Origin: Candidatus Sericytochromatia bacterium
GTDB lineage: Bacteria; Cyanobacteriota; Sericytochromatia; S15B-MN24; VGJW01
Direction of reading: 5' to 3'
Length of the DNA stretch: 64,000 bases
NCBI GenBank assembly: GCA_035285865.1
Contig: JAYKHS010000016.1
Location: forward strand, 1 to 64,000
Shown piece by piece: positions 15,841-20,254 of the stretch. The notes beneath the pieces were generated by a model. The model saw only the letters and a program-made list of their open reading frames with translations, made no database searches and was not told the origin of the DNA. The position numbers were made by a program, and so were the translations under genes. Positions within the stretch are counted from its first letter, which is position 1; each line of letters begins with the position of its first letter.

Positions 15841-16020
15841 GCGCGGGGGGCCCAATGGGCCGGGGGTGCTTGAACCTGCACGAAGCAGGTGGGTGCCCTC
15901 CCGGGGAACGTCCATTTCCGTCTGCTCGGACGGTCTACGTCGGTTCTCCGAAGCTCTCGGGCTCCCTTTTTGGAGATTGTAGCCCAAGCACGGGCCCGGG
16001 TCCGAGGGTCCCCCGCGTCC
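15841..16020 (-). ncRNA. ssrS: 6S RNA
   Basis: About 180-nt rod: GCGGGGGACCC/GGGCCCCCCGC and GUGCUUGGGC/GUUCAAGCAC closing helices, central bubble ACAAUCUCCAAAAA, GGGAGCCC/GGGCACCC, and the 6S-typical GGCACCCACCUG...CAGGUUCAA. Confidence 0.85.
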
Positions 16021-16137: not shown

Positions 16138-18555
16138 ATGGCATTGCGGATCGCGAAGGCCCGCCTCACCCGGACTCCGGCCACACTTCTGCGCGAGGCC
16201 TATGCCGCCATCGAGCGCCAGGACAGGCCCGAGGCCATCGCCCGCCTGCTGGATCTGCTGGAGCTTACCCCTGACGATGCGACATCTTACAGGCATCTGG
16301 CTGTCCTGCTCGTCGACGAGGGGGCGCTTGACCGGGCCCTGCTGTCCGCGCGGGAAGCACTGCGGCTCGAACCGGATCAGGCGGATACCTGCAACGTGCT
16401 GGGCTTCATCCTGTACCAGCTGGGCTGGACCCGGACGGCGACCATGGCCTTCCGTCGAGCCCTCGCCCTGCAGGAAGACCATCCGGGTGCGCGGGAGAAC
16501 CTGCTGGCGTGCATCGCACACGAGCGGAATCAGGGCTCTGCGGAAGAGCCTGCCGAGCTGGACGCCGTGCGCACCATGCTGGAGGTGCGTCAGCCCCGGC
16601 TGTCCCTCTGCATGATCGTCAAGAATGAGGAAGAGGTTCTCGACGCCTGCCTCTCGAGCGTGCGGGGCTTCGTGGACGAGATCTGCATCGTCGACACCGG
16701 CTCGACCGACGGAACGCTCGCGATCGCCGAAGCTCACGGCGCACGCATCGGCCACCACGCCTGGACCGGGGACTTCGCCGAAGCCCGGAACAAGTCCCTC
16801 GAGATGGCGACCGGAGACTGGATCCTCGTGCTGGATGCTGACGAGGAGCTCGCGCCGGAGTCCGGCCCCTTGCTGCGCGAGACGCTGCGCCGCAGGGACC
16901 ACGGGGCCTTCGGCCTGGTGATTGACAACGCCTTGGGTGGAGGCGCGGGAGAAGTCCAGCGCGCCACCATCCTGCGCCTGTTCCGCAACCTCCCCGAGAT
17001 GCGCTTCTGGGGGCGCGTCCACGAGCAGATCTTCCCGGCAATGAACGAGGTCGGCGTGACGAGCGGCGAGGTCGCTGTCCGCCTGATCCACAAGGGCTAT
17101 ACCGAGGAGATGATGACCCGCCGGAACAAGAACCAGCGGAATCTCGACCTGCTGTTGCAGCAGGAACGCGAACTGCCCGAACCGCATCCGTACAACCAGT
17201 TCCACCTGGGCAACCAGTACAAGCGCCTCGGTGAGCCCGGGAAGGCCGAGCAGCATTACCGCAAGGCGATCGAACTGCTCCATGCCGTGGACCCGTGGAC
17301 CCGTGCCCCGTATCACGCGCCGCTGCTTTATGGCCTGGTCCTGGTCCTGCGGGAACGCGGCGCGCTCGAGGAAGCAGCAGAGTGGGCCGAGAAGGCCATA
17401 CGGATCTTCCCCGACTCGGCGAACTGCCTGCACCAGCTTGCGCTGATTCGCCTGAGCCAGGGGGACGTGGACACGGCGATGGAGGTTCTCGACAGGGTCC
17501 TGACCCTTAAGGATCGCCCGTTCGCGGGTGGTACTGACCTCGGCGTCTTCGACTACCTCAACGATGCAGCCAGAGGTGTATGCCTCGCCCGCCAAGGCAA
17601 GCTGGACGAGGCTCGCGAGTGCCTCCAGCGCGCCGTGGACGCCTCACCCAAGGCCTTGCCGGCAGTGGAGGTCAACTTGGCCACGGTCGAACTGGCCAAG
17701 GGCATGGACCTCGCGGGCACGGACCGGCTGGCGCGCATCGTGGCCGAGCATCCCGAGGAAGCCGGCGCCTGGCTCCTGCTCGCGCAGCATCACATCAAGC
17801 GGGGCAACCTCGCCGAGTCCTTGGCCCTGCTGGGGCAGGCCTGCAGCACACATCCCGAGATTCCTGACTTCCATCACGAACGGGCGGATCTGCTGCTGCG
17901 GTTGGGTCGCGTCGAGGAGGCCATCCGGGTGCTCGAAAAGATGCACTCCCTCGCTGAGGGTACCCGCCGTGCGGGGATCACGCTCGGCGTGGCTCGTCTC
18001 ATCCGCGGCGATGCGGATGCAGGTACCCGCCTCAAGGCCGATGCGATGGCATCGGACGATGCGGAGACACGCAAGGCGTGGTTGGCGACGGCCCACCTCC
18101 TCGACTGCTGCCTTGGCCTTCCCGGGGAGCCTGGCGACCTCCTCGCCGTGGGCTTCGCGCCTGCCGAGTTCCGCGCCCAGTGGCAGGGACTCCTCCGTAC
18201 GCTGCTTGCCCACGGCCGTGCAGACGCCATCGAGCACATGTTGCGGGTGCAGGCGACTCATGAGGCCGCGCTCCCCGGTCTGGGCAAGGACCTCGCCATC
18301 ATCCTGCTGGGTGCGGGATTCGAAGATCCTGCTCTTGCCCTGCTGCTGGCCCATCGCGAAAGCCACCCGGAAGACGCGACGACCTACTTGCACCTCGCTC
18401 GGATCTGCCTTGCGCGCAACCTGTTCGAGGACGGTGTGGAGTTGCTGCAAGAAAGCATCCGTCTCGATCCCGGGCTGAGCATGGCACGCCGCATGCTCGT
18501 GCGGATGCGCAAACTGGCACGCGCGGCCGCCACGACCGCCGCTTCGGCATCCTGA
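16138..18555 (+). CDS. TPR-containing family 2 glycosyltransferase (probable flagellin glycosyltransferase)
   Basis: LSLCMIVKNEE, IVDTGSTD, FAEARN, LVLDADE, GRVHEQ, HKGY; TPRs on both sides; GAAGGAG RBS. Confidence 0.92.
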   Translation: MALRIAKARLTRTPATLLREAYAAIERQDRPEAIARLLDLLELTPDDATSYRHLAVLLVDEGALDRALLSAREALRLEPDQADTCNVLGFILYQLGWTRTATMAFRRALALQEDHPGARENLLACIAHERNQGSAEEPAELDAVRTMLEVRQPRLSLCMIVKNEEEVLDACLSSVRGFVDEICIVDTGSTDGTLAIAEAHGARIGHHAWTGDFAEARNKSLEMATGDWILVLDADEELAPESGPLLRETLRRRDHGAFGLVIDNALGGGAGEVQRATILRLFRNLPEMRFWGRVHEQIFPAMNEVGVTSGEVAVRLIHKGYTEEMMTRRNKNQRNLDLLLQQERELPEPHPYNQFHLGNQYKRLGEPGKAEQHYRKAIELLHAVDPWTRAPYHAPLLYGLVLVLRERGALEEAAEWAEKAIRIFPDSANCLHQLALIRLSQGDVDTAMEVLDRVLTLKDRPFAGGTDLGVFDYLNDAARGVCLARQGKLDEARECLQRAVDASPKALPAVEVNLATVELAKGMDLAGTDRLARIVAEHPEEAGAWLLLAQHHIKRGNLAESLALLGQACSTHPEIPDFHHERADLLLRLGRVEEAIRVLEKMHSLAEGTRRAGITLGVARLIRGDADAGTRLKADAMASDDAETRKAWLATAHLLDCCLGLPGEPGDLLAVGFAPAEFRAQWQGLLRTLLAHGRADAIEHMLRVQATHEAALPGLGKDLAIILLGAGFEDPALALLLAHRESHPEDATTYLHLARICLARNLFEDGVELLQESIRLDPGLSMARRMLVRMRKLARAAATTAASAS

Positions 18556-18610: not shown

Positions 18611-18735
18611 CCTCATCGGCGCATGGCAGGAGGCACCCGCCATGCCATCCTCGTGGGTGGCGCGCAGCCGCACACGGGAGTCCGACGCACACCTGCCTGC
18701 CCGCCCCTGGCAGCGCGTGGGCGACCCAGCCCCCA

Positions 18736-19011
18736 AATGCAAATCAGGCGAGGCACCTGCCTGTCGGCTCCTCGGCTGACTCCCGGAACCGGTTCAGGTC
18801 GGTCCCACCTTCGTGACGTCGTTTCGCTACAGCCTTCGGACCCAGCTTAGCCAGAGAAGCCTTCGCGTTCACTTCGGTCCCGCGTCCGGGTCCCAGTCCG
18901 GTACACGGGGGTCATCGCGCCTTGGAGGTCCGAGCAGGGCAGGGGCCTCGCCACTTTCGCCCACTCCTTGCGGAGGTGACATGTATGGAGTTCGGCAGCC
19001 CCCCCGAAGCC
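18736..19011 (-). ncRNA. Candidate large structured ncRNA (about 250 nt, unclassified) with its own 3' hairpin
   Basis: Three-part closing helix joining the two ends; CUCC-GCAA-GGAG tetraloop hairpin; GUAGCGAAAC T-loop-like motif; 3' hairpin CAGGC...GCCUG plus AUUUGCAUUU. Confidence 0.6.
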
Positions 19012-19238
19012 TTGAAGCGTTATGTTCCAGCATGTCGTCCCGCACGGGCCCCGGAGGCCCCAAAATCGCGCAAGTTCGCCGCCACTTCGGGTAACATAAA
19101 CTCGGAATCGGGGAGTTCAGGCCCCGAGGCCGAAACCGCGAAGGCGTCCCAACGCCTCCGATCAAGCCCCCGACCAAGGGGCCGGTTTCACCAAGGTCCC
19201 GCCATGGATGGCGGGATGTGTCCCAGCAAGGAGGTCCC

Positions 19239-20066
19239 ATGCCCATCGAATTTCCTGTTCCGCCCCCGTCGCGGGGGGTCCTTCGCAGCCTGGTCAGCGC
19301 GGAGAGCAACCTCAATCGATCCATACAGCGGCTCGCCTCGGGCCTGCGCATCAACTCGGCCGCAGACGATCCCGCCGGAATGGCCATCTCGACCCGGATG
19401 AGGGGGCGCGTCGTCAGCATCGACCGTGCCTACCAGAACGTCGGGGACGCCGCTTCGCTGCTGTCCACCGCAGATGGTGGCATGGAAGCCACGGCCGACA
19501 TCCTGATCCGCATGCGGGAACTTACGGTCGCAGCTGCTAGCGACACGATGTCCTCATCGGACCGGACGGCCGTCAAGACCGAACTGGATCAGTTGTCGGC
19601 CGAACTGGATCGGGTCGGCAACCAGACGACCTACAACGGCGAGACCCTGCTGGACGGCAGCGCCTCGTTCACGTTCCAGATCGGAGCGGATGCCACCGCA
19701 ACGACGACCGTTGCCTTGGACGACGTGCGTGCGGCCGCGCTCGATGTGGAACCTGCGGATCTCGTCGTCAGTTCGGCAAGCAATGCCGGAACGACCTTGG
19801 GCAAGATCGACGCGGCACTCGACGAGCTCAACACGGCGCGTGCCAAGGTCGGAGCCCGCATCAACAGGCTTGAATTCACCGCTTCGGCCTTGAGCGTGGA
19901 ATCACAGAACCTCAGTGCCTCGGCATCCCGCATCCGCGATGCCGACATGGCGCTCGAGACCACCCGCATGATCAGAAGTCAGCTGCTCCAGCAGTCTGCC
20001 CAAGCCATGCTGGCACATTACGGCAACCGCAACGACGGGCTGCTCAGCCTGATTCGGGGCAGCTGA
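19239..20066 (+). CDS. Flagellin-family protein (short, atypical termini)
   Basis: RLASGLRINSAADDPAG, QIGAD, RAKVGARINRLE, SRIRDADMA; AAGGAGGT RBS before ATG 19239. Confidence 0.93.
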   Translation: MPIEFPVPPPSRGVLRSLVSAESNLNRSIQRLASGLRINSAADDPAGMAISTRMRGRVVSIDRAYQNVGDAASLLSTADGGMEATADILIRMRELTVAAASDTMSSSDRTAVKTELDQLSAELDRVGNQTTYNGETLLDGSASFTFQIGADATATTTVALDDVRAAALDVEPADLVVSSASNAGTTLGKIDAALDELNTARAKVGARINRLEFTASALSVESQNLSASASRIRDADMALETTRMIRSQLLQQSAQAMLAHYGNRNDGLLSLIRGS

Positions 20067-20139: not shown

Positions 20140-20229
20140 GGGGAGATGCTGGAGTGGTTGAACAGGCAGTCCTGGAAAGACTGTAGGCGGCCAAAAGTCG
20201 TCTCCGGGGTTCGAATCCCCGTCTCCCCG
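20140..20229 (+). tRNA. tRNA-Ser (GGA)
   Basis: GGGGAGA/TCTCCCC acceptor stem, CAGTC-CTGGAAA-GACTG anticodon arm, long variable arm, GGTTCGAATCC; CCA not encoded. Confidence 0.97.
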
Positions 20230-20254
20230 CTCCCACCTGACGCCGAGGCTCGTC

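What the first reader, a model, noticed from the sequence alone, without database searches (positions are those of the whole stretch)
18736..19011. Unclassified structured RNA of about 250 nt, on the opposite strand between the glycosyltransferase and flagellin genes
Seen: the 680-bp gap holds no credible ORF. On the minus strand the two ends of a 246-nt segment pair in three consecutive helices: GGCUUC(19011-19006)/GGAGCC(18771-18766), GGCUG(19000-18996)/CAGCC(18778-18774) and CUCC(18990-18987)/GGAG(18783-18780). Inside are a CUCC-GCAA-GGAG GNRA hairpin within a UGUCAC/GUGGCG helix, a CAC-GAAG-GUG hairpin, recurring purine-rich GCGAAA/CCGAAG/GCGAAG words, and GUAGCGAAAC, which resembles a T-loop. 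A hairpin plus U-rich tail follows at once. It lacks the hallmarks of tmRNA, RNase P (GAGGAAAGUCC), SRP helix 8 and group II intron domain V, and 6S is already found at 15841-16020. Inference: an independently folded large ncRNA of unknown class, possibly linked to flagellar or surface regulation. I found no convincing promoter for it.
Basis: partly seen in the sequence, partly recalled or inferred. Interest (0 to 1): 0.82.

Follow-up and report, generated by a model that had tools for sequence, protein, structure and literature searches.

The report
Two-loop RNA gripping flagellin mRNA leader
This is a previously unlisted folded RNA of about 240 bases whose two exposed loops match two sites on the message of the flagellin gene next to it, so it probably switches that one flagellin off (or on) once the late stage of flagellum building begins.

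Summary
The proposed outer helices fall in a promoter: they have pairing probability 0 and their 5' strands occur in 0 of 5 homologs. The RNA runs about 18982-18740 from a conserved sigma-28-type promoter. It is a long stem closing a four-way junction (z about -4), with no Rfam family. Six homologs were found, in Sericytochromatia where labelled, always divergent from a flagellin paralog. Two 8-nt loops carry invariant 7-mers, CUGGGAC and CCUGAAC. These are exactly complementary to two invariant sites in that flagellin's leader: GUCCCAG beside the Shine-Dalgarno, and GUUCAGG, itself in hairpin loops (10 sites; 6 of 6 stem pairs compensated). Best reading: a trans-acting double-loop regulator of that flagellin. 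Pairing is about 75% likely; repression 45%, activation 28%. It works like OxyS-fhlA and Vibrio FlaX but belongs to neither family. Not shown: a transcript, binding, or any compensatory change between RNA and target. The homologs form only two deep lineages.

The parts
19018..19025 (-). ACATAACG box just upstream of the -35 element; candidate site of a flagellar transcription factor
   Evidence: present in 6 of 6 homologs; ACATAA occurs 73 times in the genome, twice here and 4 times before flagellin C22:77710; role inferred
18989..19015 (-). sigma-28 (FliA)-type promoter, TCAA-N15-GCCGAACT
   Evidence: TCAA-N15-NCCGA at fixed spacing with a variable spacer in 6 of 6 homologs; same format before 3 of 4 flagellin genes at C22; FliA present; assignment to sigma-28 rests on the recalled consensus
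18740..18982 (-). the RNA, about 240 nt; 5' end predicted 7 nt after the -10 element, 3' end uncertain
   Evidence: z = -4.1; 70-pair consensus, 94.6% of cells paired, 10 pairs changed on both sides, 0/500 shuffles; ends inferred
   Evidence: helices 1-2; no counterpart in G004, replaced by a longer 5' extension in L087
18939..18952 (-). closing stem, 5' strand
   Evidence: pairs with 18760-18747; different sequence but an equally long stem in G004 and L087
18880..18908 (-). arm A; loop ACUGGGAC at 18897-18890, complementary to leader site 19220-19226
   Evidence: CUGGGAC in 6 of 6; unpaired 0.98-1.0 in 5 of 6, only 0.11-0.82 in G004
18807..18879 (-). middle arm with the near-invariant element CUGGCU(A/G)AGCUGGGUC at 18854-18839; function open
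   Evidence: its duplex with leader plus 60 nt of coding sequence beats shuffles in only 1 of 6; no other site in the genome within 1 mismatch
18785..18806 (-). arm C; loop ACCUGAAC at 18799-18792, complementary to the leader hairpin loop
   Evidence: loop invariant in 6 of 6 and unpaired 0.94-1.0; 5 of 7 stem pairs changed on both sides; 0/500 shuffles on cells and score, 35/500 on number of pairs, for the 11-pair structure
18735..18760 (-). closing stem 3' strand (18760-18747) and U-rich tail (18746-18735)
   Evidence: U-rich tail in the 4 same-genus sequences, not in G004 or L087
19092..19097 (+). -10 element (TAACAT) of the flagellin gene's own, sigma-70-type promoter; start predicted near 19104
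   Evidence: TAnnnT 16-18 nt before the first GUUCAGG in 6 of 6; inferred
19108..19127 (+). leader hairpin with loop AGUUCAGG (19114-19121): predicted partner of arm C
   Evidence: 10 such sites in 6 leaders, 57 of 60 cells paired, 6 of 6 pairs compensated, 0/500 shuffles on cells and score
19198..19215 (+). hairpin with AUGGA loop: CsrA-type site
   Evidence: CCATGGA in 6 of 6 leaders; csrA and fliW present; ANGGA loops in a flagellin leader described in PMC4894983 (passages)
19220..19234 (+). GUCCCAG (19220-19226), predicted partner of arm A, directly before the Shine-Dalgarno AAGGAGG (19228-19234)
   Evidence: GTGTCCCAG and CAAGGAGGT in 6 of 6 leaders
19239..20066 (+). flagellin paralog, 275 aa, atypical N-terminus: predicted target
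   Evidence: Pfam Flagellin_N and Flagellin_C over cut-off; four further flagellin genes at C22 lack both sites

Best explanation
The RNA is a trans-acting, sigma-28-induced repressor of the flagellin paralog transcribed away from it. (1) The paralog's mRNA is made from a sigma-70-type promoter, earlier in the flagellar programme (inferred). (2) When FliA is released, it transcribes the main flagellins and this RNA (promoter conserved; timing inferred from established flagellar hierarchies). (3) The RNA folds into a four-way junction that holds out two 8-nt loops (supported by covariation). (4) Loop C kisses the (A/C)GUUCAGG hairpin loop(s) near the mRNA 5' end; the mRNA loop and the RNA loop each leave one 5' base free and make 7 Watson-Crick pairs (complementarity shown, binding inferred). 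(5) Loop A pairs with GUCCCAG 1-2 nt upstream of the Shine-Dalgarno, between the two CsrA-type GGA sites, so the bulky RNA blocks 30S entry (inferred). The result is a pulse of the minor flagellin followed by shut-off. No Hfq or ProQ was found, so two short contacts on a rigid scaffold would stand in for a chaperone. Pairing with this leader, whatever its sign, is about 0.75 likely; the confidence given is for pairing plus repression.
For: Nine 7-mers are common to all six RNAs and nine to all six leaders; exactly two form complementary pairs, and they are the two loops. Both target words fall in a random 135-nt window of this genome 46 times in 200,000. Of 10 leader GUUCAGG sites, 9 close a stem of 4 bp or more in the same 8-nt register, against 24 of 687 genome-wide; their stems are unrelated in sequence yet paired. 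G004 and L087 carry three such hairpins each. RNA stems covary around invariant loops. All 6 homologs lie divergent from a flagellin. Of 28 metagenome pattern hits, the 4 that score with the model have a flagellin beside them and 0 of the other 24 do. Among 54 flagellin-like genes, a complementary loop pair plus an antisense sigma-28-type promoter occur together only at the 5 targets in that set. Site A lies at -19..-13 or -22..-16 from the start. Precedent for blocking 30S by multi-site pairing in a flagellin leader: FlaX (PMC11879080, passages and section 34).
Against: Both 7-mers are invariant, so no compensatory change between RNA and target was seen. The six sequences form two deep groups (4 + 2; 58-65% identity between groups). 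L087 was found with a pattern that contained both loops, so only its leader is unselected evidence. In the four same-genus leaders folded with 60 nt of coding sequence, GUUCAGG is mostly buried (unpaired 0.09-0.17); it is open in the nascent leader (0.74-1.0) and costs 1.7-3.5 kcal/mol to expose. Loop A is predicted partly paired in G004, and G004 folds better on the opposite strand (z -3.9 vs -2.5; the other 5 favour the RNA strand). A lenient loop-loop complement arose by chance at 13 of 49 non-target flagellins. The bare promoter motif is not enriched genome-wide at spacing 15 (27, against 12-38 at other spacings). Holding both sites open lowers the cost of opening -14..+13 by 1.8-5.3 kcal/mol, which fits activation. 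The middle-arm element is unexplained.
Confidence: 0.45

Rival explanations
1. Same two contacts, opposite sign: the leader is closed by default and the RNA is the key that opens it, so the flagellin is translated only after sigma-28 is active (an AND gate). It may also displace CsrA.
For: Both target sites take part in folds that close the start region. In the four same-genus leaders the 5' hairpin sequence can pair with the first codons across the ribosome site; in G004 and L087 GUCCCA can pair with the sequence at the GUG start, which resembles loop A. Holding both sites open lowers the opening energy in 6 of 6, by 1.8-5.3 kcal/mol. Site A lies between the two CsrA-type GGA sites.
Against: A 240-nt RNA docked 1-2 nt from the Shine-Dalgarno should hinder 30S binding. 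The closing folds differ between the two lineages, and site C has no effect on opening in G004 and L087. A plain sigma-28 promoter would give late expression more simply.
Confidence: 0.28
2. The RNA and the leader do not pair. The element is read from the plus strand as a mimic of the leader, or both are bound by one protein, making it a decoy or sponge.
For: As DNA the two words are direct repeats on the plus strand, in the same order in the element and in the leader. G004 folds better on that strand. The invariant middle arm could be a protein site.
Against: On the plus strand the loop would read GUUCAGGU, one base out of register with the leader's AGUUCAGG loops. The conserved promoter points along the minus strand. 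5 of 6 homologs fold better on the minus strand. It is not CsrB-like: only 0-3 of 7-12 GGA per RNA are unpaired.
Confidence: 0.12
3. The RNA has a wider role (a ribonucleoprotein or multimer built on the middle arm, acting on several flagellar mRNAs or localising them), and the leader contact is only its address label.
For: The 16-nt middle-arm element is as conserved as the loops yet has no partner in the target. It contains a short palindrome that could allow dimer formation. Triple hairpins in two leaders would suit a multimer.
Against: No partner protein gene travels with the RNA: neighbours differ between lineages apart from flagellins and a glycosyltransferase nearby. The four other flagellin leaders lack both sites.
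Confidence: 0.1
4. The matches are DNA-level operator repeats or the relic of a duplicated leader, and the fold is incidental.
For: Several direct repeats link the two regions; a third, GGAGGTCC, is also shared in the window.
Against: Compensated stems around the loops on both sides and z of -2.5 to -4.7 in 6 of 6 cores are not expected of DNA sites. The third repeat is not among the words common to all six.
Confidence: 0.05

Closest known systems
FlaX sRNA of Vibrio cholerae (PMC11879080; passages and section 34 read)
   Same: About 265 nt; part of the flagellar hierarchy; pairs at several conserved sites in the 5' leader of one flagellin paralog (flaB), blocks 30S binding and sets filament composition.
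   Different: FlaX is cut by RNase E from the flaA 3' UTR, depends on RpoN/FlrC and on ProQ, and represses a late flagellin. This RNA has its own sigma-28-type promoter, is divergent from its target, and no ProQ was found. Sequence homology to FlaX was not tested.
OxyS-fhlA of E. coli (PMC2946933; passages read)
   Same: Two short loop contacts at two sites of one mRNA, one covering the ribosome-binding region.
   Different: OxyS needs Hfq, and its second site lies in the coding region. Here both sites are in the leader, one is repeated up to three times, the scaffold is a four-way junction, and Hfq was not found (genome 83% complete).
RNAIII-rot/coa loop-loop repression in S. aureus (PMC3861533; passages read)
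   Same: A large structured RNA repressing translation through loop-loop pairing.
   Different: RNAIII has many targets and recruits RNase III. This RNA has one evident target next door; nuclease recruitment is untested.
sigma-28-dependent sRNAs UhpU, MotR, FliX, FlgO of E. coli (PMC10578931; abstract and outline read)
   Same: Sigma-28 control and an effect on flagellin levels.
   Different: Those are UTR-derived; MotR and FliX pair within coding sequences. This is a stand-alone, highly folded RNA.

Membership tests
Any Rfam 15 family (raiA, OLE, GOLLD, ROOL, group II D1D4, T-box and riboswitches recalled to be among the 4227) | match at gathering score | tested here: not met
   only a tRNA in the window; 6 hits of 17 bits or less, one of 11 bits touching the RNA; none over the core in 4 homologs
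tmRNA | tRNA-like ends and tag frame; sole tmRNA gene of the genome | tested here: not met
   no hit here; 3 of the 5 genomes with this RNA have a full tmRNA elsewhere at 132-135 bits; none over the cut-off in the own assembly
RNase P RNA | RF00010 match; single copy | tested here: not met
   the true gene is at C19, 266.8 bits
SRP RNA | RF00169/RF01854 match | tested here: not met
   the true gene is at C26
6S RNA | RF00013 match; rod with central bubble | tested here: not met
   only hit is at 15866-15991; this RNA is branched
CsrB/RsmZ sponges | many single-stranded (AN)GGA in loops | tested here: not met
   0-3 unpaired GGA of 7-12 per RNA, 1-2 ANGGA
FlaX | processed from a flagellin 3' UTR | tested here: not met
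   own promoter; in the window no gene lies upstream on that strand
FlaX | ProQ association | tested here: inconclusive
   no ProQ domain found in an 83% complete genome
FlaX | sequence homology | not tested
   no FlaX sequence was fetched
Kissing-loop trans-acting sRNA (OxyS/RNAIII mode) | conserved exposed loops complementary to conserved target sites | tested here: met
Kissing-loop trans-acting sRNA (OxyS/RNAIII mode) | one site in the ribosome-binding region | tested here: met
   site A at -19..-13 or -22..-16
Kissing-loop trans-acting sRNA (OxyS/RNAIII mode) | compensatory change between RNA and target | tested here: inconclusive
   both words invariant in 6 of 6
Kissing-loop trans-acting sRNA (OxyS/RNAIII mode) | binding and regulation shown by experiment | not testable with these tools
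   needs probing and reporter assays
Cis-encoded antisense RNA | overlaps its target on the opposite strand | tested here: not met
   RNA starts near 18982 and the mRNA near 19104, diverging without overlap (starts predicted)
Sigma-28-dependent sRNA | sigma-28 promoter | tested here: met
   conserved motif in 6 of 6, same format as 3 of 4 main flagellin promoters, FliA present; activity not tested

The most novel reading that the evidence does not exclude
A natural, chaperone-free RNA clamp: a four-way junction that grips its mRNA with two symmetric 7-bp loop contacts and acts as a key that switches translation ON, or delivers the message to a protein or multimer through its invariant middle arm. 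The repeated leader hairpins would then be modular docking addresses, and the cassette of promoter, RNA and leader could be moved in front of different flagellin genes (the targets do not group together in the best trees, though one origin is not rejected, p-AU 0.13).
Probability: 0.2. Interest if true: 0.82.

Novelty: new variant of a known kind. Interest (0 to 1): 0.66.

Why it matters
Trans-acting bacterial sRNAs rarely reveal their target from sequence alone. Here the RNA, both of its recognition loops, the target gene and the timing signal can be read from one 700-bp gap, with compensated stems on both partners. It would add a regulatory RNA to the non-photosynthetic relatives of cyanobacteria, for which our searches found none in print. 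It would show flagellin-paralog selection by RNA arising independently of Vibrio FlaX and apparently without Hfq or ProQ. The two-loop design is testable at once in vitro or in E. coli reporters, and could serve as a programmable riboregulator scaffold.

Tried and rejected
tmRNA, including a permuted form: suspected because none scores in the own assembly, rejected. Resemblances to raiA, SRP helix 8, a T-box antiterminator and tRNA D/T loops (recalled, not from a call): not conserved across the six or out of register; no Rfam support; only 2 of 44 tRNAs share a 9-mer with the middle-arm complement. Small ORF from the ATG at the RNA start: three different frames are used in its middle among relatives. 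Third contact with the Shine-Dalgarno (GGACCUCC): present in the window, buried in a stem, not common to all six. Middle arm pairing with the early coding region: beats shuffles in 1 of 6. More distant homologs: model R2 gave 11 weak hits (19-27 bits) in 8 other genomes of 27; all lie inside open frames of 150 aa or more and none has a flagellin within the locus. In 151 phylum genomes it found the same 5 plus one of those weak hits. It found nothing new in 48 flagellin and pattern loci. The leader pattern hit 18 of 47 class genomes; of the 19 loci only the 5 known ones have a flagellin. GTDB pattern scan: 109 loci, 80 scored with R1, 3 hits, all repeating sequences already counted; 3 of 109 have a flagellin. 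Viral contigs: 0 hits for the RNA motif, 1 unrelated hit for the leader motif. Expression: one RNA run held 9% of the words; laid, it gave one 136-nt piece without differences over 19129-19264 (flagellin leader) at depth 5 and nothing over the RNA, which shows neither presence nor absence. Sigma-70 scan: 0 sites. Earlier findings of the scan: nothing returned.

Full report
Setting. The finding lies in the 683-bp gap between a TPR-glycosyltransferase (16138-18555, +) and a flagellin (+). The flagellin most likely starts at ATG 19239, behind AAGGAGG at 19228-19234; this start and site are kept in the three same-genus genomes. Named records that carry the element are labelled Ca. Sericytochromatia or Ca. 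Tanganyikabacteria (3 of 109 pattern hits).

Check of the observation. The quoted words are there and the three outer helices are complementary. But the 246-nt unit folds no better than shuffles (z -0.04), while 18736-18982 gives z -4.1 on the minus strand and -1.8 on the plus strand. The 15 proposed pairs have probability 0.0 and cost 17.6 kcal/mol to force; their 5' strands, the T-loop-like word and the CAC-GAAG-GUG hairpin occur in 0 of 5 homologs. Rfam has no family for it. RNase P, SRP and a 6S-like RNA lie elsewhere. No tmRNA reaches the cut-off in this assembly, but 3 of the 5 genomes with this RNA have a full tmRNA elsewhere.

Homologs. BLAST found it in 4 of 41 genomes, the window's own included. 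A covariance model added G004, another genus of the same family (5 of 47 class genomes). A metagenome pattern scan gave 28 loci; 4 score with the model, 3 of them repeat known sequences and one, L087, is new. All six lie divergent from a flagellin with an atypical N-terminus. A second model found no credible further member in 27 order genomes or 151 phylum genomes. The six form two deep groups: 73-91% identity within the genus, 75% between G004 and L087, 58-65% between groups.

Promoter and ends. TCAA-N15-NCCGA is kept at fixed spacing with a variable spacer in 6 of 6, each time preceded by ACATAACG. Three of the four flagellin genes at C22 have the same format, and the longer motif with CATAACG occurs at only two places in the genome: here and before the first C22 flagellin. 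FliA is encoded. The match to the sigma-28 consensus is recalled. The bare motif is not enriched genome-wide, so the case rests on conservation. The RNA should start near 18982. The flagellin gene has a sigma-70-type -10 element 16-18 nt before its first leader hairpin in 6 of 6.

Fold. A long stem (18952-18939 with 18760-18747, continuing inward) closes a junction with three arms. In the four same-genus sequences 94.6% of cells pair and 10 of 70 pairs change on both sides (0/500 shuffles); that structure was derived from the same alignment, and kin can exceed the shuffles without structure. Across all six, 5 of 7 pairs of arm C change on both sides around an invariant loop. G004 and L087 have closing stems of different sequence and similar length. 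Core z-scores are -2.5 to -4.7 in 6 of 6, and the RNA strand folds better in 5 of 6, G004 being the exception.

The link to the flagellin leader. Nine 7-mers are common to all six RNAs and nine to all six leaders. Exactly two are complementary across the sets: CUGGGAC with GUCCCAG, and CCUGAAC with GUUCAGG. The RNA words are the loops of arms A and C, predicted fully unpaired except loop A in G004. Both target words fall together in 46 of 200,000 random 135-nt windows. The leaders hold 10 GUUCAGG sites: one in each same-genus leader and three each in G004 and L087. Taken without selection for structure, they sit in 8-nt loops closed by stems of unrelated sequence: 57 of 60 cells paired, 6 of 6 pairs compensated; 9 of 10 have 4 bp or more, against 24 of 687 sites genome-wide. 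The register is symmetric: each loop leaves its 5' base free and pairs 7. Read from the plus strand, the element's loop would be one base out of register with the leader loops, which argues against a mimic. GUCCCAG lies 1-2 nt before the Shine-Dalgarno, between it and an AUGGA hairpin of CsrA type; csrA and fliW are present, Hfq and ProQ were not found in this 83% complete genome. The four C22 flagellin leaders lack both sites.

Results against. No compensatory change between RNA and target was seen, because both words are invariant. L087 was found by a pattern holding both loops. A lenient loop-loop test also fired at 13 of 49 non-target flagellins, and an antisense promoter-like motif at 3 of 49, though never both. 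With coding sequence attached, the same-genus leader hairpin is predicted to refold into a long-range helix; it is open in the nascent leader. The middle-arm element has no partner. No transcript was seen: the single RNA run covered only part of the flagellin leader at depth 5.

How it most likely works. Shown: the fold, the promoter motif, the complementarity and the linkage. Inferred: transcription by FliA after the target mRNA is already being made; capture of the 5' hairpin loop(s) by arm C; docking of arm A beside the Shine-Dalgarno; blocked 30S entry, so that the minor flagellin is made in an early pulse. I put pairing at about 0.75, split 0.45 repression and 0.28 activation. Activation stays open because both sites take part in folds that close the start region, and holding them open lowers the opening energy by 1.8-5.3 kcal/mol. 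The target flagellins do not group together in the best trees, but one origin is not rejected (p-AU 0.13 on 22 of the 59 rows).

Comparison with known systems. It works like OxyS-fhlA (two kissing contacts; PMC2946933, passages) and RNAIII (loop-loop repression; PMC3861533, passages). Its biological role resembles FlaX, which pairs at three sites of the flaB leader and blocks 30S (PMC11879080, passages and section 34), and the sigma-28 sRNAs of E. coli (PMC10578931, abstract and outline). CsrA sites in a flagellin leader are described in PMC4894983 (passages). It is not filed under any of these: it has its own promoter, lies head to head with its target, is a four-way junction, and has no Rfam match. 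Eight paper searches (listings only) showed no description of this RNA; the motif search returned three salmon gene-expression papers. The library lacks most subscription journals, and supplementary motif catalogues, which may list it, were not searched.

Verdict. A real, unlisted structured RNA with a well-supported candidate target and an untested mechanism, narrow in distribution. New variant of a known kind; interest 0.66.

Noticed in passing
window 15866-15991 (-): 6S-like RNA scoring 38.6 bits, below Rfam's 46.4 cut-off; the only 6S hit in the genome.
   Followed up: partly
window 20140-20230 (+): tRNA-Ser(GGA) found by ARAGORN but not listed by the Rfam gathering scan.
   Followed up: no
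G000 whole assembly: No tmRNA over the cut-off; also none in 4 of 20 relatives, probably assembly gaps.
   Followed up: partly
window 19018-19025 and 19094-19099; G000:C22 upstream of 77710 and 74652; L087 2260-2315: Repeated ACATAA/CATAAC boxes before flagellin and RNA promoters: a candidate site for an unnamed flagellar regulator of this lineage.
   Followed up: partly
G000:C22 upstream of 74652 and 77710: Hairpins with ACGGAUG loops before the Shine-Dalgarno of main flagellins, CsrA-type sites; fliW and csrA lie side by side at C5:65427-65994.
   Followed up: no
window 19104-19118 with 19248-19261 (+): Possible long-range helix between the mRNA 5' end and the first codons, enclosing the ribosome site; predicted in all 4 same-genus leaders, with one compensated pair between the window and G003.
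   Followed up: partly
L238 1198-1977 and L087 350-1138: A second flagellin with an atypical N-terminus follows the target gene directly in G004 and L087 and may share its transcript.
   Followed up: no
G000:C22 76589-77365: A flagellin paralog on a very long branch (0.92) with a divergent N-terminus inside the main cluster.
   Followed up: no
L238 5541-7916: G004 keeps a 35% identical copy of the window's TPR-glycosyltransferase in the same flagellin cluster, suggesting flagellin glycosylation.
   Followed up: no
L006 1700-1900 (G000:C13): Coding tandem repeat of a proline/threonine/methionine-rich unit upstream of a tRNA gene.
   Followed up: no
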